Source: a bacterium (GTDB lineage Bacteria; Patescibacteriota; JABMPQ01; JAUVWW01). From it: 64,000 nucleotides of DNA. The stretch lies in assembly GCA_030603885.1 (NCBI GenBank), contig JAUVWW010000001.1, positions 135,242 to 199,241 on the forward strand, read 5' to 3'. The notes under the pieces are model-generated. The model searched no databases, had not been told where the DNA came from, and saw only the letters and a program-made list of their open reading frames with translations. The translations under genes and the position numbers were made by a program. Shown piece after piece: positions 33,608 to 54,659 of the stretch. The stretch's first letter is position 1; every line of letters starts with the position of its first letter.

Positions 33608-33611
33608 AATA

Positions 33612-35078: not shown

Positions 35079-36565
35079 AAATTATTGAAAACAATCTCAA
35101 TAAGAAATGGTATGATGAGTTTGCCGAAGCATCACCTATATTCGCTAGTTTACCAGCACACGCCATAGGAGATAAAATAATTTCTTTAAAACATCAATAT
35201 AAATGTGTACTTAATTTTTATTTCCAAAATAAAACACATTGGCTGACCTTGATTGAGGATCAAGATTTAATATCTGAAGAAATTTTAAATAACTATTTAA
35301 AAAATCGGAAATATTATAGACCTTGGTTTTTGAAATGGAAGAAAAAAACTAAAAGATTTAATTCCTTATTTAAAAAGATCAAAAAAACTGATTTATCTTT
35401 ATTATCCGAGAAAAAGTTATTGAGATTGCATCAAAAAGTTTGGAAAAGTCTAATAAAAACAAGGAAGATTGATATGCTTATAGACCCTTTTATTTTTGGT
35501 TCTGAAAGGAGAATGATTAAAGAGCTGAATAAATTTTGCACTTCTCATAATATTAGAAATGTGGGTCGTTTATATACGCTCTTAACCTCGCCAGAAAAAG
35601 AATCACTCATCAATAAATTTGAACTAAGTTTAATTAAATTAACTAAACGAATTAGAAAAAAGAAAATACCTAGATATTTACCGGATGAACCATCACAACT
35701 TTCTAAACTGCCCGCCATCAAAAACCATCTGGATAAATATTGTTGGATTAAAGGCAATTGGGGTAGAAGTAATGAATACACAGTCAGTATTCTTATTAAC
35801 GAAATAAAAGAATTATTGTCAAAAAATTTATCTCAACTTGAGCAACAGAAGAAAAAAATATTTTCTTTAAATAAAGAAAAAAGAAAGAAAATACTTAAGA
35901 AATTTAAATTTAATAAAATTATTAAAGCACTTTCGGATTTAACTGTCTTTTTCTCTTTTTGGCATGATTTAAGAAAAGAAAATGCCTTAAAATATATTTA
36001 TTATGAATCCTTATTTTTAAAAGAATTTTCTAAAAGATTTAAATTAAATTTTCAAGATTTGCATTTATTTGACATATCAGAAATTGAAAAAATATTAAAA
36101 AATAGAAAAAAATTTAATTTTGAAATCAAAAGAAGAAAAAAATTATTTTTAACAGTCCATGCTAACAATAGAATATATCTTTTATTTGGCTCACAAGTTA
36201 AAAAATATTTAGACAAAATTTTAGGCTTTGAAACAAAGAAAATTGATACTATAAAAGGTGTTAGTGCATTCAAGGGTAAAGTCAAAGGTAAGGTAAAGAT
36301 AATACATGAATATAAAGATTTTTATAAATTTAAAAAGGGAGATATTTTAGTAACGGGTATGACCAGACCAGAATTTATAGCAATTGCAAAAAAGGCTAAA
36401 GCTATTATTACTAATGAAGGAGGTATCACCTGCCATGCTGCCATTATAAGTAGAGAATTAGAGATTCCTTGTGTGGTAGCAACTAGAGTAGCAACTAAGA
36501 TACTAAAAGATGGAGATAGGGTAGAGGTGGATGCAAATAAAGGAATAATTAGAAAAATAAGATGA
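35075..36565 (+). CDS. PEP-utilising-enzyme swivel-domain protein, array paralog 3
   Basis: C-terminal NEGGITCHAAIISRELEIPCVVAT...VDANKGIIRKI; start overlaps upstream stop. Confidence 0.75.
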   Translation: MKIIENNLNKKWYDEFAEASPIFASLPAHAIGDKIISLKHQYKCVLNFYFQNKTHWLTLIEDQDLISEEILNNYLKNRKYYRPWFLKWKKKTKRFNSLFKKIKKTDLSLLSEKKLLRLHQKVWKSLIKTRKIDMLIDPFIFGSERRMIKELNKFCTSHNIRNVGRLYTLLTSPEKESLINKFELSLIKLTKRIRKKKIPRYLPDEPSQLSKLPAIKNHLDKYCWIKGNWGRSNEYTVSILINEIKELLSKNLSQLEQQKKKIFSLNKEKRKKILKKFKFNKIIKALSDLTVFFSFWHDLRKENALKYIYYESLFLKEFSKRFKLNFQDLHLFDISEIEKILKNRKKFNFEIKRRKKLFLTVHANNRIYLLFGSQVKKYLDKILGFETKKIDTIKGVSAFKGKVKGKVKIIHEYKDFYKFKKGDILVTGMTRPEFIAIAKKAKAIITNEGGITCHAAIISRELEIPCVVATRVATKILKDGDRVEVDANKGIIRKIR

Positions 36566-37203
36566 AACAAAAAAGAAAAACTCTCTATCTTTGGGATTTA
36601 GCTAATACTTTATTTCCCGAAGAATGGGATAAGGAAAAAACAGGCTTTGCTAATTATGATGAGTATGTTAAGTCTCTTAGTTATGATTTAGAGAAAATTT
36701 CTCCCTTAGAATATGAAAGATGCTACGAAAAGCCTTATAAAGAAGGACTCTTTAGATTAAAAATTGCCACTGGTTTCCGTAAGGTTCTCTCTTGGACAAA
36801 AAATAACGAGGCTTTTACTACTGGGGTAAAAGAGCAAATAGATTGGCGGGCAGAGTATCTTTTGAAAAAATACAGCTTTGATATAAGAAAATATCTTAAA
36901 AAAATCCATTCTACTTTTGACTTTGCTCCAACAAACAAAAAAACTAGAGAAATGATTATTTCTTTAGTTAAGAAAAAACTTCAGGAAGGATTTAACGAGA
37001 TTGTTTATACTGATGATAAGTTAGAAAATTGTTTATTTTTTCTCGAAGCAGTCAGGAAAACAAAAGAAAGGGTGGGAAATTTCCAACTTCGAATTTATAA
37101 TATTAAAAATGACGATAGAGGAATAAGAAATAAAGGAACCTATTGGGAAGCAGGAAATTTATACGATATAATGAGTAATGAAAAAAAAGAAAGAAAATCA
37201 TGA
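36562..37203 (+). CDS. array-embedded accessory protein, weak HAD-like N-terminal motif
   Basis: LYLWDLANTLF resembles HAD motif I (hhhhDxDxTL) but the second Asp is Ala; translationally coupled at both ends (ATGA overlaps). Confidence 0.3.
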   Translation: MKQKRKTLYLWDLANTLFPEEWDKEKTGFANYDEYVKSLSYDLEKISPLEYERCYEKPYKEGLFRLKIATGFRKVLSWTKNNEAFTTGVKEQIDWRAEYLLKKYSFDIRKYLKKIHSTFDFAPTNKKTREMIISLVKKKLQEGFNEIVYTDDKLENCLFFLEAVRKTKERVGNFQLRIYNIKNDDRGIRNKGTYWEAGNLYDIMSNEKKERKS

Positions 37204-38774
37204 AATATCAAAAGGGACTAATACAAAAAAATCTAAGAATACTTCAAGAAAAAGAATGGTATCATCAACGCTTTGATGGTTGCCCTCAGTTTATTTTACT
37301 TATTTCCGAAGCTGAGATGAGACCAGAAAGAAGAAAGTTAAAAGGCGGAAACTTCACTAGCCATATTGTATTTTTTAAGAATGATAGAGTGGATTGGTAT
37401 ATTGACCAAGAAGACATAAAAAGAATTACTAACCTGGTAATTAAAGCTAGTTTAAAAAACCAAAAAATTAGCAAGGATTTAATTAAAAAATGGAAAAGGG
37501 ACGAAAAGATCTTTTATGATTACTGCAGGAGATTGAAGAATATAAATCTAGATATGTTATCTAATGAAAGGTTAAAACATTTATATCATGATTTTGTTGA
37601 AGTCTATTGTAAAACTGTAACAAACAGTTCTGTTATTGATGGATTTGCTTTAGGAACAGATCGGATTATTCAAGAAAAAATAACAAATTTTTTAAAGAGT
37701 AAAAGACTACAAAAATATCAGTATCGCTATTTTACCAGGCTTACTGCTCCTACTAGTCAGTCCTTTATTAATGAAGCGGAAATTTCTCTCCTAAAGGTTG
37801 TTCAGTTAATAAATAGGACTAAAGCTATAAAAAGATTAGTATTACGAGAGAAAAGTATAGATCAGATTTTAAAAGAGTTAAAACAATTTAAGAGAATATA
37901 CCAAGCATTAAAACAACATCAAAAGAGCTATTTCTGGAGTAAAAATAATTACGTGGACGATAATGTGCTTGATCTAAACCATTTTACAAAGGAAATAAAA
38001 GGGATACTTAGAGGAAAGGTTAATATCACAAAAGAAATAAATCGGATCTCAAGCACGCCCATTAAAAATAAGATATCAAAAGATAAATTAATTAAAAGAT
38101 TAAAACCACCAAGAATAATTAGAAATCTAATAACCATTTCAGGTAATTTTACAGATTGGCAAGACGAAAGAAAGAGAAAGACTTATTGGTTAACCCATTG
38201 CTTAAGTCTTATTATTAACGAGATTGCTAAGAGATTCGACTATTCTCTACATGGAATAAAGTATTTAGTTCCGCCAGAGGTAGAAAATCTATTTACAAAA
38301 AAGAGGAAAATTACTCTAGCAGAAACTAGGGCAAGAATTAGAAAATCGCTTTTTTATCAAAAAGGGCAAAATTATGAGATATTGTCTGGAAATAAAGCTG
38401 AGAAACTAAGAAAGGTAATTTTACGGAAAAAGAGAGAGGAGGTTATTCATGACTTTCGAGGTCTTCCAGCTTGCCGAGGAAAAGTAAGAGGTAAGGTCAA
38501 GATAATTAAAAGTGCTAGAGAAGCTGGAAAAGTAGAGAAAGGTAATATCTTGGTGGCTGTGATGACACGTCCAGACTATATAGTAGGAATTAAAAAGGCA
38601 GCTGCCATAGTAACTGATGAAGGTGGAGTTACTTGTCATGCAGCTATAGTAAGTCGAGAACTTAGTATCCCTTGTGTGATAGGTACTAAAATCGCTACCA
38701 AAGTCTTAAAAGATGGAGATTACATAGATGTCAATGCTAGTCACGGAATAATAACTATTATAAAAAGAAAATAA
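37200..38774 (+). CDS. PEP-utilising-enzyme swivel-domain protein, array paralog 4
   Basis: C-terminal DEGGVTCHAAIVSRELSIPCVIGTKIATKVLKDGD; N-domain motifs YFWSKNNY and WQDERK...NEIAKRF. Confidence 0.75.
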   Translation: MKYQKGLIQKNLRILQEKEWYHQRFDGCPQFILLISEAEMRPERRKLKGGNFTSHIVFFKNDRVDWYIDQEDIKRITNLVIKASLKNQKISKDLIKKWKRDEKIFYDYCRRLKNINLDMLSNERLKHLYHDFVEVYCKTVTNSSVIDGFALGTDRIIQEKITNFLKSKRLQKYQYRYFTRLTAPTSQSFINEAEISLLKVVQLINRTKAIKRLVLREKSIDQILKELKQFKRIYQALKQHQKSYFWSKNNYVDDNVLDLNHFTKEIKGILRGKVNITKEINRISSTPIKNKISKDKLIKRLKPPRIIRNLITISGNFTDWQDERKRKTYWLTHCLSLIINEIAKRFDYSLHGIKYLVPPEVENLFTKKRKITLAETRARIRKSLFYQKGQNYEILSGNKAEKLRKVILRKKREEVIHDFRGLPACRGKVRGKVKIIKSAREAGKVEKGNILVAVMTRPDYIVGIKKAAAIVTDEGGVTCHAAIVSRELSIPCVIGTKIATKVLKDGDYIDVNASHGIITIIKRK

Positions 38775-38775
38775 T

Positions 38776-40296
38776 ATGATAGAGCCAAAATATTTTGTTC
38801 AAAGAATGGATGGGGTACTTTTGCTCTCTTTTCTTGCTTCTGAAGCAGAAGTGGTTAATGTTAAAAAAGATTTTGGCATGGGGAAGCCTTTCTGTCCTGG
38901 TGTTAATGCTCACAAGAGGATTAATTATTTTGGTTATGTTTGGAAGGACATACACAAACAAGCAGAATTTATTATTAGAAAAATAAAGAAAAATCCTCGT
39001 TTTTTATCTGATCTTCTTAGAATGTGGAAAGAGAGAGTAAAGAGATTAAGAAATTTTGAAGAAAGAATTTTAAAGACAAGTTTGAAAAATATTTCTGACA
39101 AAGAACTTGTAGCTATTTTTCAGCAGTTAATCAATCTTTATCAAGAAGAATATAGTCCAGCTCTTTTGTGTGATCCTTTTGGTCTCCATACAGAGAAAAT
39201 TATTACTGATAAGCTTAGAAAGATTGTAGAAAGGAGAGAAGAGCCAAGAAAATTTGCTAAATATTTAGAGATTTTAACTACACCTGCAAAAAGATCCTTT
39301 GCTAATGAAGAAGAACTCGATCTTTTAATACTAGCTCAGAAAATAAAGAGGAATAAAAAATTAGCAAGTATCTTGAAGAAAGATGTAAGAAAAGCAAAAA
39401 AAGGGTTAGTTAAACATCCTTACTTAGAAAAACTCATTAGGAAACATATGAAGAAATTTTTCTGGATTGAAAACAGTTATGCCCAGGGAATAAAATTAAA
39501 AGAAGGTTATTTCTTAAAAAAAATTAGAAGGTATTTAAAAGAGAGTATTAATCTCTCAAAGAAAATCAAAGAACTTAAAAATTTGTCTAAAAATTACAGA
39601 AGAAAAAAGAAAACCCTAATTAAAAAGCTTAATTTAGATAAAAAATTTAGAAAATTATTAGAATGGACAGAAGTTTTTGGCTATCTTCACGATGCTAGAA
39701 AAGGAGTGATGATGGAGGCACATTATTATATTACCTTACTGCTCAAAGAAATCGGTAGAAGACTTAGATTAACTCTTCAGGAAATGTACTATACCGATCA
39801 TCACAAGATTGAAGAAATGCTTCTTAAGAAAAAAATCAACAAAAAACTTCTTCGAGAGAGAATAAGAATGTGTACTTACCTAATTTGGCCAACAAAATAT
39901 AGAATTTTAACAGGCAGAAAAGCAGAGTGGTGGCACAAAGAACTTTTAGGAGAAAGAAAAATGGTTATTGGTGAAATCAAAGGAGTTAGTGCTTCAAGTG
40001 GGGTAACGGTAGGTAAAGCCAAAATAGTAAAAGATGTTAAAGATGGATATAAAATAAAGAAAGGAGATATTCTAGTTACTGGTATGACCCGTCCTCACTG
40101 GATGCCTTTTATTAGAAAAGCTAAAGCCCTAGTCACTGATGAAGGAGGAATCACCTGTCATGCGGCCATTGTAGCCAGAGAGCTTGGCATTCCTTGTATC
40201 ATTGCTACAAAAGTGGCTACCAAAATATTGAATGATGGATATTTAGTCGAAGTGAACACTAATCATAATAGAGTGAAGATTCTAAAGAGAGTTTAA
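38776..40296 (+). CDS. PEP-utilising-enzyme swivel-domain protein, array paralog 5
   Basis: C-terminal DEGGITCHAAIVARELGIPCIIATKVATKIL; N-domain homologous over its length to paralog 6. Confidence 0.75.
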   Translation: MIEPKYFVQRMDGVLLLSFLASEAEVVNVKKDFGMGKPFCPGVNAHKRINYFGYVWKDIHKQAEFIIRKIKKNPRFLSDLLRMWKERVKRLRNFEERILKTSLKNISDKELVAIFQQLINLYQEEYSPALLCDPFGLHTEKIITDKLRKIVERREEPRKFAKYLEILTTPAKRSFANEEELDLLILAQKIKRNKKLASILKKDVRKAKKGLVKHPYLEKLIRKHMKKFFWIENSYAQGIKLKEGYFLKKIRRYLKESINLSKKIKELKNLSKNYRRKKKTLIKKLNLDKKFRKLLEWTEVFGYLHDARKGVMMEAHYYITLLLKEIGRRLRLTLQEMYYTDHHKIEEMLLKKKINKKLLRERIRMCTYLIWPTKYRILTGRKAEWWHKELLGERKMVIGEIKGVSASSGVTVGKAKIVKDVKDGYKIKKGDILVTGMTRPHWMPFIRKAKALVTDEGGITCHAAIVARELGIPCIIATKVATKILNDGYLVEVNTNHNRVKILKRV

Positions 40297-40300
40297 AAAT

Positions 40301-41770
40301 ATGGCTAGACAAACAAAATATTTTGACCAAATGAGAGACGGTTTTCCATTTACTGCTATAACTTCTACTAGAGCTCAAATGGTTAATTTAAAAAGTGATA
40401 CAGGAATTTTTAAGCCGGAGTTTATTTGTATATTCAGAAATAAAACTATCCGCTTTATTTATCCTTGGGCCGAATTACACAAAATAGGTAAAGAGATAAA
40501 TGATCTTTTGTTAAAAAACCAAAAGCTTATAGACGAACTTATTCAGACTTGGCAAAGGAAATACCAGCTTTTAAATATATTTTGCCAAGACATAGATAGG
40601 TTAAATTTAAAAAACCTATCAGATAGGGGGCTGGTTAGCCTCTTAGACAACTTGCTGAACATTTTCCAAAATCAATTTAGCATTCCTTGTCTGGTAGAAT
40701 TTTTTAGTTTACATAATGAGCAAGTGATTATTAAAAAACTAATAAAGATATTAAATAAACGAAATGAACTTAAATTATTGCCTGATTATCTTACAACTTT
40801 AATCGTGCCAACCAAGTATTCCTTCAACAACGAAGAGGAACTAGATCTTTTAAAAATAGCTATAATGATAAAGCAAAAAAGAAATAAAAAATTAATTGAG
40901 GAAAGACTAAGACAACATGTAGATAATTACTTTTGGATTGAAAATAACTATGCTCAAGGAATAAAACTTAAAAAAAGCTATTTTGTAAAGAGAATAAATA
41001 GGCTAATTAAAAAGGATAACTTAAGAAAGAAATTAAAAAACATAAAAGACTTGTCTAATAAAAATAAACAAAGAAAAAGAAGATTAATCCGAAAACTAAG
41101 ATTAGATAAAAAGACTATTGAGCTGTTGAACTTAATAGATATTTTTACTTATATTCAGGACAGGCGTAAAGCATCTCAAATGAAAACCTTTTATTATCTT
41201 CAAGAAATGTTAAAAGAAATTGGAAGAAGATTAAAGTTGAGTCAAGAGGAAATGAATTATGCTGTTCATTACGAAATTCCAGAGATGTTACTAAAAAGAA
41301 AAGTAGATGGAAGGATGTTAAAAGAAAGAATGAAATATTGTATCTCTATAGAAACATATAGAAATGATAAATATAAATACAAGATTTTAACAGGGGGGAG
41401 AGCTAAAAAGTTTGAAGAGAAGTTATTTGGAAAAGAAGCTAAGAAAAAGATATCTGACCTACAAGGCATCTGTGCTTCTCAAGGTGTTGTGGTAGGCAAA
41501 GCGAAAATTATTAAGACAATAAAAGATTTCTCCAAGATAAGAATTGGTGACATATTAGTCACTTCTATGACTACTCCCGAGTTCGTTCCTATATTAAAGA
41601 AAGTTAAAGGTATAGTTACTGACGAAGGAGGAATTACTTGCCACGCTGCCATTATTTCTAGAGAATTAGCTATCCCTTGTGTAGTTGGCACTAATATTGC
41701 TACTAAAATTTTAAAAGACGAAGAACTGATAGAAATCCGAGCCCATCATGGAATCGTAAAAAGGATTTAA
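40301..41770 (+). CDS. PEP-utilising-enzyme swivel-domain protein, array paralog 6
   Basis: C-terminal DEGGITCHAAIISRELAIPCVVGTNIATKIL; YFWIENNYAQGIKLKK motif shared with paralog 5. Confidence 0.75.
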   Translation: MARQTKYFDQMRDGFPFTAITSTRAQMVNLKSDTGIFKPEFICIFRNKTIRFIYPWAELHKIGKEINDLLLKNQKLIDELIQTWQRKYQLLNIFCQDIDRLNLKNLSDRGLVSLLDNLLNIFQNQFSIPCLVEFFSLHNEQVIIKKLIKILNKRNELKLLPDYLTTLIVPTKYSFNNEEELDLLKIAIMIKQKRNKKLIEERLRQHVDNYFWIENNYAQGIKLKKSYFVKRINRLIKKDNLRKKLKNIKDLSNKNKQRKRRLIRKLRLDKKTIELLNLIDIFTYIQDRRKASQMKTFYYLQEMLKEIGRRLKLSQEEMNYAVHYEIPEMLLKRKVDGRMLKERMKYCISIETYRNDKYKYKILTGGRAKKFEEKLFGKEAKKKISDLQGICASQGVVVGKAKIIKTIKDFSKIRIGDILVTSMTTPEFVPILKKVKGIVTDEGGITCHAAIISRELAIPCVVGTNIATKILKDEELIEIRAHHGIVKRI

Positions 41771-41872
41771 TTATCTTAAACTTCATACTAAAAAGGGTAT
41801 TCCAGATAATTCCTCAGACATGAGTCGCAAAAGAAGTTTTAAGATGATAAGATATAATTGATAATTAAATAA

Positions 41873-43405
41873 TTGTTAACCAAAAAATATATGCCAGCAG
41901 CAGTAACAAGATCAGGCCCATGGAGAATAAAGCCATCAGGTAAATTACCTATCTTTTTAAGGTTCATGATCAACTCGAGTTTTGATCACAAAATCGCCAA
42001 TAAAGTAGGTTTTAAACATCATATTGTTAATCGGGTTTATCTTAATCATATGATTTACTGGCCAGCTAAAGAATATGATCTATTTGAAAAGGAGATTATT
42101 AATAATGCCAAAAATAAAAAGGGCTGGTTTGAAAACCTCTGCAAAAGAGAGCTTAGAAAATGTGAGAAATTGTATAAATTAGGTCTAGAACTAAAAAGAA
42201 TGGATTGGTCTAAGAAATCTAACCAGTATATGAAAGAGGTATTAACTAGTTTATTAGAGAAATACAGGTATGTTGCTTGCCCGTGGTATACCCAATATCC
42301 TTTAGATGAATATTTTGAAAGTACGATAGAAGAACAACTTGTTAAACATATACCGGCTAGCCACCCAGATTTCAGAAAATTTGTCTTAATTTTTACTGAT
42401 CCAAAAGAAATGACCGAGGTTAGTGAGGAAAAATGGAAGTTAATGAAAATAGCTAAAGAATTTAAGAAAAGAGGGGAGAAATTATCTAAATTATCCAAAT
42501 GGGCAAAAGAGAAAATAGAACGTCATTTAGATAAATTTGCCTATATTAATAGGGGACTGGCTACTAGTAAGCCATACACATTCAAGGACATGGTTGATCG
42601 AATCAGAGAGGCTTGGAAAGATAAAAAAGGATTAAATACACTAATTTATGATAGCTCACCTAAAAAAATAGAAGAAGATTATAAATGGGCTCTAGAAAAG
42701 ATCAAACCAAAACCAAAATTTAAAAAAATTATCACTCAAGCTAGATTACACTCCTACACTAGAAATCGTCGCGTAGAAGCCTTTTTTATGGCAGATTATG
42801 GAGCTAGTTTCATGTATCACGAGATTGCTAAAAGAGCTCACTTTAACCCAAACTGGATTATGGAAGTTTCTGTCCCAGAAATGTTTGGTGCTTTGGAAAA
42901 TAAACCTTTGCCTGATAAAAGGGAAATGCAGAGAAGATTTAAAAACTATGCTATGATTGTTCGCAATGCCAAGACCAAGATGATTGTTGATCCAAAAGAA
43001 ATCAAGAAGTTAGAAAAGAGATATTATGTCAAAGTTAGCAAGGTTAGAGAGATCCATGGAAGAATGGCTTGTCTAGGAGGTATTATTAAAGGTAAAGCAA
43101 GGGTGTGTTTAGATAAAAAAGAGATTGGTAAGGTTAAAAGAGGTGACATTTTGATAGCACAGTTTACTACACCAGACTTTGTACCAGCCATGGAAAAAGC
43201 AGCTGCTATTGTTGCTGATCAAGGTGGTCTGTCATCCCATGCTGCCATTGTTTCCCGAGAGCTGGGCGTACCCTGTGTAATTGCCACAGAAAATGCTACC
43301 CGAGTAATCAAGGATAATGATTTGTTAGAGGTCGATGCTCGAAAAGGAGTAGTTAAAATTTTAAGAAGAGTAAAAAGGAGGAAAAACTATGAGAAAATTT
43401 GTTAA
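41873..43405 (+). CDS. PEP-utilising-enzyme swivel-domain protein, array paralog 7 (most divergent N-domain)
   Basis: C-terminal DQGGLSSHAAIVSRELGVPCVIAT (Ser-Ser-His variant closest to the canonical TSHAAI of PpsA/EI). Confidence 0.7.
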   Translation: MLTKKYMPAAVTRSGPWRIKPSGKLPIFLRFMINSSFDHKIANKVGFKHHIVNRVYLNHMIYWPAKEYDLFEKEIINNAKNKKGWFENLCKRELRKCEKLYKLGLELKRMDWSKKSNQYMKEVLTSLLEKYRYVACPWYTQYPLDEYFESTIEEQLVKHIPASHPDFRKFVLIFTDPKEMTEVSEEKWKLMKIAKEFKKRGEKLSKLSKWAKEKIERHLDKFAYINRGLATSKPYTFKDMVDRIREAWKDKKGLNTLIYDSSPKKIEEDYKWALEKIKPKPKFKKIITQARLHSYTRNRRVEAFFMADYGASFMYHEIAKRAHFNPNWIMEVSVPEMFGALENKPLPDKREMQRRFKNYAMIVRNAKTKMIVDPKEIKKLEKRYYVKVSKVREIHGRMACLGGIIKGKARVCLDKKEIGKVKRGDILIAQFTTPDFVPAMEKAAAIVADQGGLSSHAAIVSRELGVPCVIATENATRVIKDNDLLEVDARKGVVKILRRVKRRKNYEKIC

Positions 43406-44414
43406 AAGTGAAGAGATAACGCCCGAAATAAGAGAACAAAGAAAGCCGCGATTGGAACTTTGGATTACTCGTCATGCTAATCGGGCCCCAACAGGCGAGT
43501 TGACGCCAGAAGGAATAGCTACTGTAAGAGCTAAAGGGGAAAAGGTTGATGCTGAAGTTCTAAAAGGATATTCTAGTTTTGAGAAGAGTGATCGGACCTA
43601 TAAAACTCTTCAAAAAATTAGTAAAGAAAGCAAAATTAAGTCTCCATCAACAGAGGGTTTATATCAAACTCGACGGAGAGTAGGTCTCTATTATGATGTA
43701 GTCGGTCCCTTGCAATCGCGAATCAAAGCTCAGACTAAATTGATTAATGAGATGGTGAAAAAAGATTACCCCGATTATGACCCTGAGTCTAAGGATCCAA
43801 AATGGGCTAAAATCCGTGAAAGATATCAGCCCATTGGCATTCGTAATGTAATAGCTGATAAGGAAATATCTCATGTATTAGCTATGGGCGCAGCCTATCA
43901 ATTTTTCAAAATGGCAGAGATTGGTGAGAGATATATTGCTCGGCGAAAAAGTGCTCTTAAAAGAGGTGAAAAAGGTGCTAGACCAATAGAGAAAGATATT
44001 ATTTTAAATGAGGGAACGCACGGTGGTTTTATTGATTTAATGCTTAAGAAAACTATGATTAGGGTTAAGCCAGATGGAAACGAAAAGATAGGTTTTGACC
44101 TCAGCCGGGATAAAAAGGGTCTGATTGTCTTCGAGAAAGTAATGGGAGATGTGATAAGACCAACAGAGTCTATTAAGACAGGCTATCCAGTGGGTGAAAA
44201 GTTACCAGAGAGATTACCTATTTCTTTTGAGCAGGATCGTTTTAAAGAAGAGAAGTGCTATATAAGTATACCTAGAGTTAAATTATTAGCAGAACAATTT
44301 AGAGCTTATCTTGAACAGTTAGGAAAATGGAATAAAGGAGAAATAGACGAAAAAGAACTCGTTTTAGTAATCAATAGATTAAGAGAAGAGTTCGAGAAAG
44401 AGAAGAAATCGTAA
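43389..44414 (+). CDS. histidine phosphatase superfamily protein (histidine-acid-phosphatase-like RHxxRxP motif)
   Basis: ITRHANRAPTGELTPEG matches the RHGxRxP catalytic motif of branch-2 histidine phosphatases (compare AppA SRHGVRAPT); start overlaps the end of paralog 7 by 17 nt. Confidence 0.5.
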   Translation: MRKFVKSEEITPEIREQRKPRLELWITRHANRAPTGELTPEGIATVRAKGEKVDAEVLKGYSSFEKSDRTYKTLQKISKESKIKSPSTEGLYQTRRRVGLYYDVVGPLQSRIKAQTKLINEMVKKDYPDYDPESKDPKWAKIRERYQPIGIRNVIADKEISHVLAMGAAYQFFKMAEIGERYIARRKSALKRGEKGARPIEKDIILNEGTHGGFIDLMLKKTMIRVKPDGNEKIGFDLSRDKKGLIVFEKVMGDVIRPTESIKTGYPVGEKLPERLPISFEQDRFKEEKCYISIPRVKLLAEQFRAYLEQLGKWNKGEIDEKELVLVINRLREEFEKEKKS

Positions 44415-44618: not shown

Positions 44619-45137
44619 ATGACATACAATCTAAAATCTAAAATTCGCTCTATCCTTGATTGGCCTAAAAAAGGTATTGTTTTTCGAGATATCACACCTG
44701 TCTTGGAAAATGCAAAATTGTTTCGATATCTGATTGATCAGATGGGTAAGCCTTACATTAAAAAGAAAATTGATATGGTAGTAGGTATTGATGCTCGTGG
44801 TTTTATTTTAGCCGCAGCCTTGGCTTACAAATTAAAAACAGGCCTGGGCATAGTGCGTAAAAGTGGTAAATTACCTCATAAAACTATAAAGAAAAAGTAC
44901 TCTTTAGAATATGCTTCTAATGTTTTGGAAATGCATCACGATACTATTAAACCTGGACAGAAGGTTTTGTTAGTTGATGATTTATTAGCTACAGGAGGAA
45001 CAATGAAAGCTACGGTTGATCTGGTCAAGAAATTAGGTGGAAAAGTGGTTGGAATCGACTTCTTTATCGAGCTAAAAGACCTAAAAGGAAGAAAAAAGCT
45101 AAAAGGATACCCTGTGAAATCACTTATTAATTTTTAA
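44619..45137 (+). CDS. apt: adenine phosphoribosyltransferase
   Basis: PRPP-binding motif VLLVDDLLATGGT; 172 aa. Confidence 0.85.
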   Translation: MTYNLKSKIRSILDWPKKGIVFRDITPVLENAKLFRYLIDQMGKPYIKKKIDMVVGIDARGFILAAALAYKLKTGLGIVRKSGKLPHKTIKKKYSLEYASNVLEMHHDTIKPGQKVLLVDDLLATGGTMKATVDLVKKLGGKVVGIDFFIELKDLKGRKKLKGYPVKSLINF

Positions 45138-45151: not shown

Positions 45152-46087
45152 ATGTATATTCTTCCCTTTGAAAAAATTTCAAAAAAAGATGTAGATATAG
45201 CCGGAGGAAAAGGAGCCTCTTTGGGAGAGATGACCAAGGCTAAAATACTTGTTCCCCCTGGCTTTATAGTTTTAGCCTCTGCTTTTGACAGGTTTCTTGA
45301 AGAAACAGATATTAATCTAGAAGTAAAGGCCCAGCTTAAAAAGGTTGATCCTAAAAAAACAACCACAGTAGACGATGCTTCCGAGGTGCTAAGACAGCTA
45401 ATCAATAGGTATAGCATGCCTAAAGATATAGAAAAGGCTGTTTTAGAGGCTTATGACAAGCTTAGAGCCAAATACGTGGCTGTGAGGAGCTCTGCTACAG
45501 CCGAAGACTCTAAAATAGCCTCTTGGGCAGGGGAGTTGGAGTCGTATTTAGGTATTACTAAAAAAGACCTTATCAATAAAGTTCAAAAATGTTGGTCTTC
45601 TTTATTTACCCCTCGAGCTATTTTTTATCGAATAGAAAAAGGACTGGATGGAAAAGAAGTTTCTGTAGCTGTGGTAGTCCAAAAAATGGTTGAGGCAGAG
45701 ACAGCTGGAGTAGTTTTTACAGCTCATCCTGTCACCAAGGACAAAAATCAAATGGTCATTGAGGCTTCTTATGGCCTAGGGGAGTCTGTAGTAGCAGGAA
45801 AAGTCACTCCCGATACTTATGTGCTAGATAAAAAAGATGAGACTATAATAGATATCAATATTAATGTTCAGACTACTCAAATCAAGAGAGTAGGGACCAA
45901 AACAAAAACTATACCTATTCCCAAGAAACTCCAAGACAAACAAGTTTTATTTGGAAAACAAATCATTAAACTAGCTAAAATTTGTAAAAAAATAGAAAAA
46001 CATTATAGCTTTCCTTGTGATATAGAGTGGGCGATAGAGAAGAATAAGATATACATCGTTCAGAGCCGACCCATCACTACCTTATAA
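45152..46087 (+). CDS. standalone PPDK_N / PEP-synthase-type ATP-grasp nucleotide-binding domain protein
   Basis: N-terminal ILPFEKISKKDVDIAGGKGASLGEM matches the PpsA/PPDK N-terminal nucleotide-binding domain; ends ..IVQSRPITTL at the canonical domain boundary; no His domain or PEP/pyruvate TIM barrel in this gene. Confidence 0.8.
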   Translation: MYILPFEKISKKDVDIAGGKGASLGEMTKAKILVPPGFIVLASAFDRFLEETDINLEVKAQLKKVDPKKTTTVDDASEVLRQLINRYSMPKDIEKAVLEAYDKLRAKYVAVRSSATAEDSKIASWAGELESYLGITKKDLINKVQKCWSSLFTPRAIFYRIEKGLDGKEVSVAVVVQKMVEAETAGVVFTAHPVTKDKNQMVIEASYGLGESVVAGKVTPDTYVLDKKDETIIDININVQTTQIKRVGTKTKTIPIPKKLQDKQVLFGKQIIKLAKICKKIEKHYSFPCDIEWAIEKNKIYIVQSRPITTL

Positions 46088-46093
46088 ATTTAT

Positions 46094-47146
46094 ATGGAGA
46101 AATTATTCAGTATATCAATAATTGATTTTAGTCTAATAATACTAGAATCATGGGATACTGGTTATTTTAACGAGATGAGGAGGCAACTTAATTTTGGATT
46201 CCCTCGTGTTTTCTTTTTTAGGACAAAGGCTGGTGTAAATATAATGCGTCCCGAGAAAGACCAGAGATCTTTTGAAAAATACATTCTCAGGGAAATTAAA
46301 AGCGATCCCAAATATTTATCTATCCGCTTGAAAAAAATTTTCAGGTATCTTGACGAGCTAAATAAGTCAAAAAAGAAAAAACTCAAAAAGGCAAGTAGTA
46401 AAGACCTATGGAATTGTGCTCAAAAAACATTCAAAATAATATATAAAATTCTACCAATGTATGTTGTGGTCTACTGGTTACTAAGTAGATCATATTTAAG
46501 AGAGTATGTGGATTATAAAGAAATGGAAAAAGCAAGAGTTAGAAGCGAGGGTTATTATGATATAGGAGATAAAATATTTAAAAAGATTTTTAAGAGTGCT
46601 ATAGCTGGCAGAAAGCAACTTTTAAATTATTTTAAAGTGATAAAGTTTGAAGAATTAAAAAAACTTTTGCTTAAAAAACAATTTCCTAAATTATCTGAAT
46701 TACGCAAGAGAAAAATAAATTATTTTCTGTTTAAAAACAATTTTTTATCTGGAAAACTAGAGCTAGATCGAACTCTAAAACGTTATGGTTTCAAATATCA
46801 ATCACCTAAACCAACTCTGGAAGATAGTGTGATCTATGGTCAGACTGCTACAAGAGGTAAGGCTAAAGGACATGTTAAAGTGATTTTAGGTAAAGATGAA
46901 CTCAAAAAAATCCGTAAAGGTGATGTGCTAGTAACTGCAACGACCTCTCCAGATTTTATCCCAGCCATGAAAATTTCAGCTGCTATAGTTACTGACTATG
47001 GTGGAATAGTGTGTCATGCTGCTATTGTTTCTCGAGAACTAAGAGTCCCTTGTATAATAGGCACTAAAATCGCTACCAAAGTTCTAAAAGACGGAGATAG
47101 GGTAGAGGTGGATGCCACAAAAGGAATAGTTAAAAAGATAAAATGA
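46094..47146 (+). CDS. PEP-utilising-enzyme swivel-domain protein, array paralog 8 (short N-domain), adjacent partner of the ATP-grasp gene
   Basis: C-terminal DYGGIVCHAAIVSRELRVPCIIGTKIATKVLKDGDRVEVDATKGIVKKIK; starts 6 nt after the ATP-grasp stop. Confidence 0.75.
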   Translation: MEKLFSISIIDFSLIILESWDTGYFNEMRRQLNFGFPRVFFFRTKAGVNIMRPEKDQRSFEKYILREIKSDPKYLSIRLKKIFRYLDELNKSKKKKLKKASSKDLWNCAQKTFKIIYKILPMYVVVYWLLSRSYLREYVDYKEMEKARVRSEGYYDIGDKIFKKIFKSAIAGRKQLLNYFKVIKFEELKKLLLKKQFPKLSELRKRKINYFLFKNNFLSGKLELDRTLKRYGFKYQSPKPTLEDSVIYGQTATRGKAKGHVKVILGKDELKKIRKGDVLVTATTSPDFIPAMKISAAIVTDYGGIVCHAAIVSRELRVPCIIGTKIATKVLKDGDRVEVDATKGIVKKIK

Positions 47147-47994
47147 AAAAACAAGCACAAATTGGAATTATTGGAGGATCTGGGCTTTACGAATTATTAG
47201 AAAAGCCAAAAGAAATAGAAGTAAAGACTCCTTATGGAAAGCCCTCGGACAAAATTACTTTAGGGGAATATGCTGGAAAAAAAGTTGCTTTTTTGCCCAG
47301 GCATGGAAAAAAGCATCAGTTTGCTCCTCATAAAATACCATACAGAGCTAATATCTATGCTTTTAAGAAACTAGGAATAAAAAGAATTATTGCTCCTTGT
47401 GCTGCAGGAAGCTTAACTCCAAAATTTAAACCAGGAGATTTTGTAATTTGTGATCAGTTTATAGATCGAACTAAGGGAAGAGAAGATACTTTTTATGATG
47501 ATCCTCAGAAGTCTCATAATTTAGCCAAAAGCCTGGGATTCAAAAAGAAAATTTCTTCAGTAGTCCATATCTCTTGCGTTGATCCTTATTGTCCCGAGCT
47601 ACGAAAGATAGCTTTTGATACTGCAAAAAAACTAAAAATTCAAGCTCATCCAAAAGGAACAGTAGTAGTAATTAACGGTCCCAGATTTTCTACTCGAGCC
47701 GAATCCCGCTTTTATTCTAGCCAAGGTTTTGATATAATTAATATGACCCAATATCCTGAAGTTGTATTAGCTAGAGAATTAGAGATGTGTTATGTGACTA
47801 TTGTTTTGATAACTGACTTTGATGCTGGACTTGAGGGAATGCAAGATATTTATCCAGTAACTTTCGAGGAATTGGTCAAAGTTTTTAAAGCCAATATTGA
47901 TAAAGTAAAGAAATTGATCTTCAAAATGATTGAAGATATGCCCGAGAAAAGAATATGTGAATGTGGACAGGCGCTAGAGAAAGCAATGGTATAA
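47143..47994 (+). CDS. mtnP: 5'-methylthioadenosine / purine nucleoside phosphorylase (PNP/MTAP family)
   Basis: IGIIGGSGLYEL N-terminus, FLPRHG phosphate-binding motif; ATGA overlap with upstream stop. Confidence 0.8.
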   Translation: MKKQAQIGIIGGSGLYELLEKPKEIEVKTPYGKPSDKITLGEYAGKKVAFLPRHGKKHQFAPHKIPYRANIYAFKKLGIKRIIAPCAAGSLTPKFKPGDFVICDQFIDRTKGREDTFYDDPQKSHNLAKSLGFKKKISSVVHISCVDPYCPELRKIAFDTAKKLKIQAHPKGTVVVINGPRFSTRAESRFYSSQGFDIINMTQYPEVVLARELEMCYVTIVLITDFDAGLEGMQDIYPVTFEELVKVFKANIDKVKKLIFKMIEDMPEKRICECGQALEKAMV

Positions 47995-48024
47995 CTAATA
48001 ACTTAATAATTAATACAAAAACCT

Positions 48025-49284
48025 ATGAAAAACTATGACATTAAAGATCCAAAACTTGCCTCAAAGGGGAAAATTCGTTTTCAGTGGTCTGAATCTCGAA
48101 TGCCAACTTTAAGGCTGATCAGAGATCGATTTCAAAAACAAAAGCTATTCAAGGACATCAACATCTCTGCTTGTCTTCATGTAACTGCAGAAACAGCAGT
48201 ACTGATGTCTGTTCTAAAAGCAGGTGGAGCAAACATTGCTCTTTGTGCCTCAAATCCGCTCTCCACTCAGGATGACATTGCTGCTTTTCTGGCTAAAAAT
48301 CTTAAGATTGGTCTTTTTGCTATCAAGGGAGAAAGCGGAGCTGCTTATTTTAGGCATATAAAAAATGCTCTAAAAATAAAACCAAACATCACCATGGATG
48401 ATGGAGCTGATTTGGTCTCTACTTTACATGATCAAAAACCTTGGTTAGTAAAAGATGTTTTAGGAGGAACTGAAGAGACAACTACTGGCCTGGTCAGACT
48501 TAGAGCTATGGAGAAGAAAGGGATTTTAGCTTATCCTATTATCGCTGTTAACGATGCTCAGACAAAAAGATTTTTTGACAATAGATACGGAACAGGACAG
48601 TCAACATTAGATGGAATACTCAGAGCCGTAAATGTTCTTTTAGCTGGAAAAAACGTGGTTATTTGTGGTTATGGCTGGTGTGGAAAAGGAGTTGCTTTGA
48701 GAATGCATGGTATGGGAGCAAATGTCATTGTCTGTGAGATAAATCCAGTAAAAGCCCTGGAAGCTTCCATGGACGGACATCACGTTATGCCTATAAATCG
48801 GGCGGCTAGGATAGGGGATATCTTTATTACCACTACTGGTGATATTAATGTCATTGACAAAAAGCATTTTGGATTAATGAAAGATGGAGCCATTTTATGT
48901 AATGCTGGTCATTTTAATGTAGAGATTAATACAAAAGCTTTAAGAAAAATGGCTAAGAAAGTAAGAAAGACGCGTGAAAATGTAGAAGAATTTACTTTGA
49001 GAAATGGTAAAAGACTCAATCTCTTAGCCCAAGGAAGACTGGTTAATCTTTCTTGTGCCGAAGGTCATCCAGCTGAGGTAATGGATATGAGCTTTGCCAA
49101 TCAATCACTATGTGCTGAATATCTAGTTAAACGAGGTCTTTCTTTAGAAAACAAAGTTTTAGGAGTGCCTAATGAAATTGATCAAAGAGTAGCTCGACTA
49201 AAGCTCAAATCTTTAGGTATCAGAATAGATCGATTGACAAAGCAACAAGAGAAATATCTTAAATCTTGGAGAATGGGGACTTAG
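48025..49284 (+). CDS. ahcY: adenosylhomocysteinase
   Basis: NAD Rossmann motif GYGWCGKG; length and pattern of SAH hydrolase. Confidence 0.85.
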
Positions 49285-52365: not shown

Positions 52366-52370
52366 AAGTC

Positions 52371-53069: not shown

Positions 53070-53097
53070 AGTCTTTTGTTAATTACTAAATTATAAG

Positions 53098-53859: not shown

Positions 53860-53861
53860 AT

Positions 53862-54653: not shown

Positions 54654-54659
54654 GGATAT

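What the first reader, a model, noticed from the sequence alone, without database searches (positions are those of the whole stretch)
45152..47146. ATP-grasp domain gene split from its swivel partner exactly at the PPDK_N domain boundary
The 311-aa product ends ...IVQSRPITTL, the canonical end of the PEP-synthase/PPDK N-terminal nucleotide-binding domain. Six nucleotides later the next gene begins, encoding a 350-aa protein whose C-terminus is the His swivel domain. Together they would make a PpsA-N plus His-domain protein of about 660 aa with no catalytic TIM barrel. The open question is whether this is an ancestral split, a recent gene fission or a nonsense-interrupted fusion. The last swivel gene's stop overlaps the MTA phosphorylase start (ATGA at 47143-47146). 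Apt lies just upstream and SAH hydrolase just downstream, so the phosphotransferase array is co-organised with adenine/adenosine salvage genes.
Basis: partly seen in the sequence, partly recalled or inferred. Interest (0 to 1): 0.6.

Follow-up and report, generated by a model that had tools for sequence, protein, structure and literature searches.

The report
Split dikinase: one charger, eight acceptors
The two adjacent genes are the separate ATP-binding and phosphate-carrying subunits of a rifampin-phosphotransferase-like kinase whose split is ancient and fixed in a large group of ultra-small bacteria, and the one ATP-binding gene here is accompanied by eight fast-diverging partner genes of unknown substrate.

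Summary
ORF 45152-46087 (311 aa) is a complete PPDK_N ATP-grasp domain ending at PITTL. Six nt later, in the same frame, ORF 46094-47146 (350 aa) starts, and its stop overlaps the MTA-phosphorylase start.

The split is not a nonsense mutation, an assembly error or a recent fission.
- The 120 best database homologs of the ATP-grasp gene are all stand-alone (305-350 aa).
- In seven other loci the gene ends at the same PITTL plus stop, with spacers of 6-60 nt in all three frames.
- The split forms are a monophyletic Patescibacteria clade (191/200 NJ bootstraps). Their sister clade holds fused forms, including a 668-aa exact fused equivalent.

The 350-aa protein is more than a swivel. Its N-terminal 240 aa form a helical domain whose best structural match is rifampin phosphotransferase (RPH). 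The pair is therefore a two-component small-molecule dikinase, like PpsAB, CreHI and HpeHI, but from an independent split.

The window has one ATP-grasp gene and eight swivel genes. All eight keep the catalytic His, and their substrate domains are about 22% identical. Two phosphatase-like ORFs are embedded in the array. The swivel slot is variable between close relatives: 33% identity where flanking genes are 86-88%, and absent in one relative. The substrate is unknown, and the link to adenine salvage is local synteny only.

The parts
45152..46087 (+). Stand-alone ATP-grasp (PPDK_N) subunit, 311 aa; proposed nucleotide-binding 'charger' of the system
   Evidence: PF01326 only, E 4.8e-101. PDB sequence matches: PEP synthase 8a8e 1.7e-72, RPH 5fbs residues 4-316 3e-59, HpeI-like 9goj 5e-53. 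K20, R112, E292, Q304 and R306 are invariant in 37 homologs. It is the only PPDK_N in the window.
46088..46093 (+). 6-nt intergenic spacer ATTTAT after the TAA stop; no Shine-Dalgarno-like, slippery or read-through signal seen
   Evidence: TAA is the commonest stop in the window (29 of 43 ORFs).
46094..46819 (+). N-terminal domain (aa 1-242) of the 350-aa acceptor subunit, 'short' type; proposed substrate-binding domain
   Evidence: AF2 model has pLDDT 94.9. Foldseek top PDB hits are RPH-Lm 5fbu/5fbt/5fbs, E 4e-12 to 6e-11 over 267-383 columns. NCBIfam RPH-like models PRK06241 align to aa 134-348. hhalign short versus long N-domain: 97% probability. The domain evolves fast: a single-sequence search of 1.84 billion representatives found 18 proteins.
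46820..47146 (+). Phospho-histidine swivel domain (aa 243-350) of the acceptor subunit; catalytic His308 at 47015-47017; stop overlaps the mtnP start (ATGA 47143-47146)
   Evidence: PF00391 E 3.3e-23. Aligns to the PEP synthase 8a8e swivel, E 2.5e-27. Motif GGIVCHAAIVSRE.
32189..36565 (+). Three 'long' acceptor paralogs (32189-33607, 33612-35078, 35075-36565; 472-496 aa): long N-domain plus swivel
   Evidence: PF00391 at the C-terminus. Own HMMs detect the long N-domain plus swivel. GG[IL]TCHAA present. Starts and stops are 4 nt apart or overlapping.
36562..37203 (+). 213-aa ORF embedded in the array with overlapping start and stop; possible HAD-like phosphatase (weak)
   Evidence: No Pfam, NCBIfam, PDB or PADLOC hit. 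HAD-like motifs (WDLANTL, AFTTG, VYTDDK) were read by eye only. BLAST against the HAD genes of L092/L093 arrays is not significant.
37200..43405 (+). Four 'long' acceptor paralogs (37200-38774, 38776-40296, 40301-41770, 41873-43405; 489-524 aa)
   Evidence: The TTG start at 41873 is uncertain.
43389..44414 (+). 341-aa ORF, divergent histidine-phosphatase-like protein that recurs inside swivel-gene arrays
   Evidence: No Pfam or PDB sequence hit. Only 6 homologs were found. Two of them sit inside swivel arrays next to a HAD gene (L092, L093). R28, H29, R32, R69 and H211 are invariant, with the motif RHANRAP. AF2 pLDDT is 79; the 41 best Foldseek PDB hits are all histidine acid phosphatases, MINPP or PGAM-family proteins, best E 4.5e-6.
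44619..45137 (+). apt (adenine phosphoribosyltransferase-like); neighbour only, not shown to be part of the system
   Evidence: PF00156. Synteny is kept in L005 and L008 only.
47143..49284 (+). mtnP (47143-47994) and ahcY (48025-49284); neighbours only, not shown to be part of the system
   Evidence: In L008, mtnP follows the ATP-grasp gene directly.

Best explanation
The 311-aa gene encodes the free-standing ATP-grasp subunit of a two-component, RPH-type 'substrate, water dikinase'. The 350-aa gene encodes one of eight acceptor subunits, each made of a substrate-binding helical domain and a C-terminal phospho-histidine swivel domain.

Inferred mechanism, taken from RPH, HpeHI, PEP synthase and PPDK. 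The ATP-grasp subunit binds ATP. The swivel His of an acceptor subunit (His308 in the 350-aa protein) docks on it and takes the beta,gamma-pyrophosphoryl group. The gamma-phosphate is lost as Pi and AMP is released. The phospho-His swivel then returns to its own N-terminal domain and passes the phosphoryl group to a bound acceptor, most likely a hydroxyl of a small molecule.

The separation of the two genes is an old, fixed architecture of a large Patescibacteria clade. A single fission in the inter-domain linker is the most parsimonious origin. The one highly conserved ATP-grasp protein probably charges all eight diverged acceptor subunits, as a hub with spokes. The acceptor genes behave as exchangeable cassettes.

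Shown here: domain content, conservation of the split, existence of fused and multi-module relatives, intact catalytic motifs, and relatedness to RPH. Inferred: the chemistry, one-to-many charging, and a small-molecule substrate whose identity is unknown.
For: Conservation of the split:
- The 120 best homologs of the ATP-grasp gene are all 305-350 aa and PF01326-only, at 60-94% identity, from Patescibacteria.
- In relatives the gene ends PITTL plus stop, followed by 6-60 nt in frames 0, 1 or 2. It is usually flanked by one to five swivel-only genes.
- All 120 best homologs of the 350-aa protein are PF00391-only.

Fused relatives:
- L018 (668 aa) is ATP-grasp + short N-domain + swivel.
- L015, L017 and L019 are ATP-grasp + long N-domain + swivel.
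- L014, L016, L076 and L091 carry ONE ATP-grasp followed by TWO N-domain+swivel modules. This shows that one grasp domain serving several modules exists in nature.

Phylogeny of the grasp domain:
- The CPR-type clade is supported 199/200, the split subclade 191/200 and the fused subclade 173/200. Both are separate from PpsA, from classical RPH-like proteins and from the Desulfobacterales/Chloroflexia two-component forms.

Relation to RPH:
- Foldseek top hits.
- NCBIfam PRK06241 alignments that extend 100-150 aa upstream of the swivel.
- hhalign of N-domains alone: long CPR type versus RPH/HpeH-like, 92% probability, E 7e-7, 227 columns. The CPR D-x-R-K motif falls on the RPH catalytic R-E (PMC4844700).

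Catalytic residues:
- The His is present in all eight paralogs.
- The ATP-grasp K/R/E/Q/R residues are invariant.

Hub pattern:
- The window has one PPDK_N and eight swivel genes.
- The grasp alignment has 70% mean column identity across the clade, whereas N-domains are 22% identical between paralogs.

Cassette behaviour:
- Between the window and L005, apt, grasp, mtnP and ahcY are 86-88% identical but the syntenic swivel gene is 33% identical. L008 has none.

Precedent:
- HpeHI, CreHI and PpsAB are biochemically proven two-component dikinases of this design (PMC12167813).
Against: - No biochemical or expression data exist for any member of this clade. I found no paper describing it.
- Homology of the short N-domain to the RPH substrate domain rests on the Foldseek ranking (TM only about 0.35, high rmsd from domain rearrangement), on partial profile alignments and on transitivity through the long type. 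Direct short-versus-RPH hhalign is not significant.
- One-to-many charging is inferred from gene counts in 64 kb. The rest of the genome was not examined and could hold more ATP-grasp genes.
- Some relatives have the ATP-grasp gene with no swivel gene within 10 kb (L002), and some archaeal swivel genes have no ATP-grasp gene nearby (L090). Adjacency is therefore not obligatory.
- The tree is neighbour-joining with midpoint rooting, so the direction (fission versus fusion) is argued only by parsimony.
Confidence: 0.72

Rival explanations
1. Recent gene fission, nonsense-interrupted fusion, or a sequencing/assembly stop. On this view the two ORFs are really one gene of about 660 aa, perhaps expressed by TAA read-through.
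For: The two ORFs are in the same frame and separated by one TAA and two sense codons. A fused 668-aa homolog exists in another Patescibacteria lineage (L018).
Against: - The same PITTL-stop end occurs in all 120 best homologs and in seven independently assembled loci. Spacers are 6-60 nt in all three frames, and L005 has a double stop TAA TAA.
- The closest relative (94% identity) has mtnP, not a swivel gene, after the stop.
- The N-terminus of the 350-aa protein aligns from residue 1 with the family consensus and is modelled with pLDDT 94-97.
- TAA is the main stop codon of the window.
- The split clade is monophyletic.
Confidence: 0.02
2. A PEP synthase broken into pieces. The ATP-grasp and swivel proteins would work with a separate pyruvate/PEP-binding TIM-barrel protein encoded elsewhere, to make PEP for gluconeogenesis.
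For: - The grasp and swivel domains score slightly higher against PEP synthase than against RPH. PDB 8a8e gives 247 bits versus 204 for the grasp, and 99 versus 66 for the swivel. NCBIfam PRK06464 gives 346 bits.
- The swivel motif GGxTCHAAIVSRE is PpsA-like.
Against: - No PEP-utilizers_C was found in the window.
- The swivel proteins carry their own 240-420-aa N-terminal domain related to the RPH substrate domain, placed where RPH has it rather than where PpsA has its TIM barrel.
- NCBIfam PEP synthase equivalog cut-offs are missed by a wide margin (346 versus 598 bits).
- The grasp domain branches outside the PpsA clade.
- Eight paralogs with 22%-identical N-domains make no sense for a single substrate.
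- True PpsA genes exist in other CPR, for example Saccharibacteria L030/L042 and Woesebacteria L027.
Confidence: 0.04
3. Strict one-to-one enzyme. The ATP-grasp protein partners only with the adjacent 350-aa protein. The seven upstream paralogs are charged by another donor, or are inactive or decaying duplicates.
For: - Known two-component dikinases are 1:1 gene pairs (PMC12167813).
- The seven long paralogs lie 1.7-13 kb upstream, separated by apt and an intergenic gap.
- L005 shows a swivel paralog broken into 311-aa and 87-aa ORFs, so some decay does occur.
Against: - All eight keep the catalytic His and a 43-65% identical swivel domain, which implies purifying selection on the part that must dock on a grasp domain.
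- No other phospho-donor domain is present in the window.
- The closest relative lacks the adjacent partner yet keeps the grasp gene at 94% identity.
- Other genomes have 1 grasp to 2-5 swivel genes, or one grasp fused to two modules.
Confidence: 0.15
4. The acceptor subunits are not small-molecule kinases. They would be phospho-carrier or regulatory proteins that phosphorylate macromolecules (proteins, glycans, nucleic acids) or act in a phosphorelay. The embedded histidine-phosphatase-like ORF would reset the phospho-His, as SixA does.
For: - A histidine-phosphatase-like ORF and possible HAD genes recur inside the arrays.
- The swivel domain is shared with PTS enzyme I, a protein phosphotransferase.
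- Rapid cassette turnover resembles genes involved in inter-organism conflict.
Against: - Every characterised protein with this domain order (RPH, PpsAB, CreHI, HpeHI, and by my recollection flavonoid and prodiginine enzymes of PRK06241) acts on small molecules.
- The N-domain homology is to a small-molecule-binding domain.
- There are no PADLOC hits.
Confidence: 0.08

Closest known systems
Two-component small-molecule dikinases: phenylphosphate synthase PpsAB (Thauera/Aromatoleum), 4-cresol kinase CreHI (Corynebacterium), hydroxyphenylethanone kinase HpeHI (Rhodococcus; PMC12167813)
   Same: There is a separate ATP-grasp subunit. The window protein matches 9goj_A, which I take to be HpeI, at E 5e-53. 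A second subunit carries a substrate-binding domain followed by a C-terminal swivel with the catalytic His. There is no TIM barrel. The expected chemistry is ATP + substrate + H2O -> AMP + Pi + phospho-substrate.
   Different: - The split is independent. The CPR grasp clade is separate from the two-component examples sampled (L077, L080, L083) in the NJ tree.
- The acceptor subunits are smaller, 350 aa or 472-524 aa versus about 600 aa.
- The ratio is one grasp gene to eight acceptor genes, not a 1:1 pair.
- There is no aromatic-catabolism context such as carboxylase genes.
- The swivel motif keeps the PpsA-type Thr-Cys-His in six of the eight paralogs.
- The host is a reduced Patescibacteria genome.
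Rifampin phosphotransferase RPH and the PRK06241 'PEP synthase-like' small-molecule dikinase family (PMC4844700; PDB 5FBS/5FBT/5FBU, 5HV1)
   Same: Domain order is the same: ATP-grasp, substrate-binding domain, C-terminal swivel. RPH is the best structural match of the 350-aa model. Profile homology of the N-domain reaches 92% probability for the long type. The evolutionary pattern is the same: conserved grasp and swivel, rapidly diverging middle domain.
   Different: - RPH is a single 860-880-aa polypeptide, whereas here there are two genes.
- The short N-domain is about 240 aa versus about 440 aa in RPH.
- The RPH catalytic pair Arg666-Glu667 appears as Arg-Lys in the long CPR type. Its counterpart in the short type is unresolved.
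- There is no evidence for rifamycin as substrate.
PEP synthase PpsA / pyruvate phosphate dikinase
   Same: The ATP-grasp and swivel domains are the closest sequence relatives. The His-swivel mechanism is the same.
   Different: There is no PEP/pyruvate TIM barrel. The swivel is at the C-terminus of a different protein, behind an unrelated helical domain. The proteins are not in the PpsA clade.

Membership tests
PEP synthase (pyruvate, water dikinase; TIGR01418 / PRK06464) | C-terminal PEP/pyruvate-binding TIM-barrel domain (PF02896) | tested here: not met
   It is absent from both ORFs. It was not found elsewhere in the window by tblastn with four PpsA C-termini or by Pfam scans of most ORFs of at least 100 aa.
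PEP synthase (pyruvate, water dikinase; TIGR01418 / PRK06464) | Score above the curated equivalog cut-off | tested here: not met
   The grasp protein scores 345.9 bits versus a cut-off of 598 (PRK06464) and 335.8 versus 739.75 (TIGR01418). The swivel protein scores 127 and 117 bits.
PEP synthase (pyruvate, water dikinase; TIGR01418 / PRK06464) | Swivel domain immediately after the ATP-grasp domain in one chain | tested here: not met
   The genes are separate, and the swivel lies behind a 242-aa N-domain. In true PpsA loci the swivel starts less than 30 aa after the grasp domain.
RPH-type small-molecule dikinases (PRK06241; rifampin phosphotransferase) | Order ATP-grasp / substrate-binding domain / C-terminal swivel with catalytic His | tested here: met
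   The order is kept across the two genes and within fused relatives such as L018 and L015. His308 is present.
RPH-type small-molecule dikinases (PRK06241; rifampin phosphotransferase) | Middle domain homologous to the RIF-binding domain | tested here: inconclusive
   For: Foldseek top six hits are RPH (E 4e-12 to 6e-10); PRK06241 profiles align to aa 134-348; the long CPR N-domain versus RPH-like N-domains gives hhalign 92%, E 7e-7. Against: the short N-domain versus RPH-like N-domains directly gives only 5% probability, and TM-scores are about 0.35.
RPH-type small-molecule dikinases (PRK06241; rifampin phosphotransferase) | Catalytic Arg-Glu...Lys 'block 9' in the substrate domain (PMC4844700) | tested here: inconclusive
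   The long paralogs have D-x-R-K aligned on R-E, so the Arg is kept and the Glu is replaced by Lys. The short family has an invariant R148 (R-x-x-x-E) whose equivalence could not be established.
RPH-type small-molecule dikinases (PRK06241; rifampin phosphotransferase) | Single polypeptide of about 860 aa; equivalog score | tested here: not met
   There are two genes. RIF_Ptrans_rph scores 284 bits versus a cut-off of 999.
Two-component dikinases (PpsAB / CreHI / HpeHI) | Separate ATP-grasp subunit plus separate substrate-domain+swivel subunit with an essential His | tested here: met
   The arrangement is conserved in relatives.
Two-component dikinases (PpsAB / CreHI / HpeHI) | Common descent with the characterised pairs (same split event) | tested here: not met
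   In the NJ tree the CPR split clade (191/200) is sister to fused CPR forms. It is distant from the sampled two-component grasp genes L077, L080 and L083, which nest among RPH-like or PpsA-like sequences. No HpeI, CreI or PpsB reference sequences were in the tree, so this is indirect.
Two-component dikinases (PpsAB / CreHI / HpeHI) | ATP-dependent phosphorylation of a phenolic substrate yielding AMP + Pi; both subunits required | not testable with these tools
   This needs enzymology.

The most novel reading that the evidence does not exclude
Ultra-small CPR bacteria and DPANN archaea carry a hub-and-spoke phosphorylation system. A single, slowly evolving stand-alone ATP-grasp 'charger' loads phosphate onto the swivel His of many rapidly diversifying, exchangeable acceptor cassettes (eight here, also found as fused two-module proteins). 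Dedicated phosphatases are embedded in the arrays. This would give these reduced cells a combinatorial toolkit for phosphorylating host-derived or environmental molecules, for example for antibiotic or xenobiotic inactivation, or to replace missing conventional kinases in salvage.
Probability: 0.3. Interest if true: 0.7.

Novelty: new variant of a known kind. Interest (0 to 1): 0.45.

Why it matters
The specific question has a clear answer: this is an ancient, fixed split, and split dikinases of this design are already known biochemically. By itself the two-gene junction is ordinary.

The wider pattern is worth attention. A CPR/DPANN-specific clade of RPH-like dikinases shows the following:
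- one conserved ATP-grasp gene serving arrays of up to eight hypervariable acceptor genes
- natural fused one-grasp, two-module proteins
- cassette-like turnover between near-identical genomes
- embedded phosphatase-like genes

About 13 kb of a roughly 1-Mb-class genome is spent on this (the genome size is my expectation for Patescibacteria, not measured here). I found no description of it in the searchable literature.

These genes are routinely annotated 'phosphoenolpyruvate synthase' or 'pyruvate, water dikinase' (source names). That can falsely credit CPR genomes with a gluconeogenic step in metabolic reconstructions. Identifying the substrates could show how episymbionts process host metabolites or antibiotics.

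Tried and rejected
- Exact look-up of the 311-aa protein in the contig index found nothing on record.
- phmmer of the fused L018 protein against PDB did not align the middle domain to RPH, so residue-level mapping to RPH R666/E667/K670 failed for the short type.
- Direct hhalign of the short N-domain against RPH-like N-domains was not significant.
- I looked for a conserved accessory gene by BLAST/phmmer of the 213-aa and 341-aa ORFs against all ORFs of 89 loci. Nothing was found. The association of the 341-aa family appeared only after a database search.
- The 213-aa ORF could not be assigned. Pfam at E up to 10, NCBIfam, PDB, PADLOC and BLAST against array HADs all failed. HAD-like motifs are by eye only.
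- PADLOC gave no defence-system match for any component.
- Literature searches for a description of the CPR family found none. Two candidate papers mentioned the Pfam names only incidentally.
- A functional link to adenine/SAH salvage was considered. It was rejected as unsupported beyond local synteny.
Full report
**1. Observation**

The window is AT-rich (34% GC) and carries ordinary bacterial housekeeping genes. Its closest protein matches are all from Patescibacteria (CPR).

- ORF 45152-46087 (+, 311 aa) is a full-length PPDK_N ATP-grasp domain and nothing else (PF01326, E 4.8e-101, profile 2-311/328). It ends ...IVQSRPITTL-TAA.
- After six nucleotides (ATTTAT), ORF 46094-47146 (+, 350 aa) begins, in the same frame.
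- Its last ~105 residues are a PEP-utilizers swivel domain (PF00391, E 3.3e-23). The phospho-carrier His is present (His308, GGIVCHAAIVSRE).
- Its TGA overlaps the ATG of an MTA phosphorylase gene (ATGA, 47143-47146).
- apt lies upstream and ahcY downstream.
- Seven more genes with a C-terminal swivel domain (472-524 aa) fill 32189-43405. Two ORFs without database matches sit among them, at 36562-37203 (213 aa) and 43389-44414 (341 aa).

Every factual element of the finding is confirmed.

**2. Is the split real and old?**

The evidence that it is real:
- The 120 best matches of the 311-aa protein among 5.8 billion clusters are all 305-350 aa, all PF01326-only, at 60-94% identity. Where named, they come from Patescibacteria such as Kuenenbacteria and Buchananbacteria.
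- I fetched the genomic context of six of them. In each the gene ends at the same PITTL followed by a stop.
- The spacers to the next gene are 6, 8, 10, 20 and 60 nt, in frames 0, 1 and 2. One relative has a double stop. The in-frame arrangement in the window is therefore coincidence. I saw no slippery sequence, and TAA is the dominant stop codon here (29/43).
- The start of the 350-aa protein is supported by alignment from residue 1 with about 50 full-length homologs, and by a very confident model of residues 2-10 as a beta-strand.
- The 120 best homologs of the 350-aa protein are all swivel-only proteins.

Fused relatives do exist, but in a different lineage. I scanned one genome per GTDB species with a profile of the ATP-grasp protein and mapped domains on stop-to-stop ORFs with my own HMMs. 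This found:
- a 668-aa Paceibacterota protein (L018) that is exactly grasp + short N-domain + swivel
- 815-841-aa proteins with the long N-domain (L015, L017, L019)
- proteins of 1046-1311 aa with one grasp domain followed by two N-domain+swivel modules (L014 Moraniibacteriota, L016 archaeon, L076 Gracilibacteria read with code 25, L091 Woesearchaeota)

In all of these the chain runs QSRPITTL, an 8-12-residue linker, then the N-domain. The window's break therefore sits precisely in the inter-domain linker.

A neighbour-joining tree of the grasp domain (99 sequences, 309 columns) with 200 bootstraps on a 47-sequence subset gives:
- a CPR/DPANN-type clade (199/200), distinct from genuine PEP synthases and from classical RPH-like proteins
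- within it, a split subclade (191/200) and a fused subclade (173/200)

The outgroups are fused, so the simplest reading is one ancient fission at the base of the split clade. The method (NJ, midpoint root) does not prove the direction.

**3. What the pair is**

The 350-aa protein is not a bare swivel.
- AlphaFold2 with a 50-sequence alignment gives pLDDT 94.9. It shows a small beta-sheet plus helical bundle in residues 1-242, followed by the swivel.
- Its six best Foldseek matches in the PDB are rifampin phosphotransferase (RPH-Lm), at E 4e-12 to 6e-10 over 267-383 columns. That is well beyond the ~105-residue swivel. TM-scores are low (~0.35), as expected when a mobile domain sits differently.
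- NCBIfam models of RPH-like 'PEP synthases' (PRK06241) align to residues 134-348.

With the swivel removed, profile-profile comparison gives:

| Comparison (N-domains only) | Probability | E-value | Columns |
|---|---|---|---|
| Long CPR N-domain vs RPH-like/HpeH-like proteins | 92% | 7e-7 | 227 |
| Short N-domain vs long N-domain | 97% | 1e-10 | 118 |
| Short N-domain vs RPH-like | 5% | 0.007 | 33 |

In the first comparison the conserved D-x-R-K of the CPR family falls on the R-E of RPH 'block 9', the residues that position the phospho-His (PMC4844700). The third comparison is not significant.

There is no PEP/pyruvate TIM barrel in the window.

The pair thus has the domain composition and order of RPH, divided into two genes. 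That is the design of the biochemically characterised two-component dikinases PpsAB, CreHI and HpeHI. In those enzymes the swivel His is essential and the acceptor subunit alone can shuttle phosphate between substrates (PMC12167813).

The ATP-grasp catalytic residues (K20, R112, E292, Q304, R306) are invariant in 37 homologs.

The mechanism I propose is ATP + acceptor + H2O -> AMP + Pi + phospho-acceptor via a pyrophosphoryl/phospho-His intermediate. It is taken from those families and is inferred, not shown.

**4. One charger, many acceptors**

- tblastn finds a single PPDK_N and eight swivel genes in the 64 kb.
- All eight keep the His.
- Between paralogs the swivel domains are 43-65% identical (mean 53%). 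The N-domains are 15-43% identical (mean 22%).
- The N-domain evolves so fast that a single-sequence HMMER search of 1.84 billion representatives recovers only 18 proteins.
- The grasp protein alignment has 70% mean column identity across the clade.
- Other genomes repeat the pattern: five swivel genes to one grasp gene in a Buchananbacteria locus (L010), three to one in L001, and two to one in L004 and L006. L093 has five swivel genes called (four detected by my HMMs) to one grasp gene.
- The natural one-grasp, two-module fusions show that a grasp domain can serve more than one module.

The acceptor position next to the grasp gene behaves as a cassette slot:

| Gene, window vs L005 | Identity |
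|---|---|
| apt | 87% |
| ATP-grasp | 86% |
| mtnP | 87% |
| ahcY | 88% |
| Syntenic swivel gene (whole) | 33% |
| Swivel gene, N-domain | 27% over 103 aa |
| Swivel gene, swivel domain | 57% |

L005 also has two extra small genes at this position. In L008, whose grasp protein is 94% identical to the window's, mtnP follows the grasp gene directly.

The hub model remains an inference from gene content. The genome outside the window was not examined.

**5. Accessory genes**

The 341-aa ORF has only five homologs in the database.
- Two of them lie inside swivel arrays of other CPR genomes, each immediately after a HAD-family hydrolase (L092 Jacksonbacteria, L093).
- The family has invariant R28-H29-x-x-R32, R69 and H211, with the motif RHANRAP.
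- Its AF2 model (pLDDT 79) has only histidine-phosphatase-superfamily structures among its 41 best PDB matches, with best E 4.5e-6.

I therefore regard it as a divergent histidine phosphatase. This rests on fold and motif only.

The 213-aa ORF has HAD-like motifs by eye but no statistical support. Other arrays also contain methyltransferase, metallo-beta-lactamase-fold and alpha/beta-hydrolase genes. That fits small-molecule processing but does not identify a substrate.

**6. The salvage-gene context**

The order apt - grasp - (swivel) - mtnP - ahcY - rhodanese - fmt is kept in the two closest relatives. At 60-75% grasp identity it is replaced by unrelated neighbours:
- murC
- pheST
- methyltransferases
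- PRPP synthase
- pyrimidine genes

Nucleotide-metabolism genes do recur near these loci, including archaeal L090. In genomes this small that is weak evidence, and I do not build on it.

**7. Comparison with what is known, and novelty**

By function the pair is best filed with the two-component small-molecule dikinases. By descent it belongs to a separate CPR/DPANN clade whose split is independent of the sampled PpsAB/HpeHI-like examples.

It differs from them in four respects:
- smaller acceptor subunits
- the 1:8 gene ratio
- cassette turnover
- embedded phosphatases

Literature searches found no description of this clade. Source annotations call these genes 'phosphoenolpyruvate synthase' or 'pyruvate, water dikinase', which is misleading for metabolic reconstruction.

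I rate it a new variant of a known kind. The junction itself is ordinary, and the array biology is moderately interesting.

**8. Limits**

- There is no experimental evidence of any kind.
- The tree is distance-based.
- ORFs in related loci are stop-to-stop segments.
- Only the 80 best of at least 600 GTDB matches were kept.
- The equivalence of the short N-domain to the RPH substrate domain is supported but not proven.
- The substrate is unknown.

Noticed in passing
window 32000-42000: The swivel-paralog array has lower G+C (28-31%) than the rest of the window (33-38%). This could reflect the Lys-rich N-domains or a different origin.
   Followed up: no
window 43389-44414; L092 3598-4614; L093 10001-11044: A rare 340-aa protein family (6 members found) has no Pfam match. 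It has an RHxxR...R...H signature and a predicted histidine-acid-phosphatase-like fold. It always lies inside arrays of swivel genes, and in two genomes it sits right after a HAD hydrolase gene.
   Followed up: partly
window 36562-37203: A 213-aa ORF overlaps both neighbouring swivel genes by 4 nt. It has no match in Pfam, NCBIfam, PDB or PADLOC. It carries HAD-like motifs (WDLANTL, AFTTG, VYTDDK) by eye only.
   Followed up: partly
L091 4013-7150: A Woesearchaeota contig has an uninterrupted 1046-aa ORF: ATP-grasp plus two N-domain+swivel modules. The source's gene calls list only its last 327 aa. A free 344-aa swivel gene lies about 0.8 kb downstream.
   Followed up: partly
L005 243-1446 and 2422-3186: In the 86%-identical relative, a long swivel paralog is broken into a 311-aa and an overlapping 87-aa ORF (frameshift, pseudogene or assembly error). 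An AbiEii toxin-family gene sits just upstream of apt.
   Followed up: no
window 26311-28785; L093 14187-20020: A TraG/VirD4/HerA-like ATPase gene lies about 3.4 kb upstream of the window's array. L093 has PrgI, TraC-like, TraG P-loop and T4SS-pilin genes right next to its array. This may be coincidence or a shared island context.
   Followed up: no
window 51835-58054; L006 2608-4834: An AMMECR1 - F420-ligase-like - LigB/Memo - FAD protein - radical SAM group plus a LigT 2',5'-RNA-ligase-like gene is present. LigB, radical SAM and LigT genes also lie a few kb from the swivel genes in L006.
   Followed up: no
window 174-7074: NiFe-hydrogenase small and large subunit-like genes flank a two-subunit 2-oxoacid:ferredoxin oxidoreductase. 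This points to an anaerobic fermentative lifestyle.
   Followed up: no
window 41770-41873: The seventh long paralog is listed with a TTG start after a ~100-nt gap. The true start may be the ATG seven codons downstream (MPAAV...).
   Followed up: no
window 35050-35074 and 36537-36561: The 25 nt upstream of two consecutive gene starts are nearly identical (ataaaggaataatta[a/g]aaaaataag). They encode the conserved C-terminus (KGIIRKIR) of the preceding swivel paralogs.
   Followed up: no
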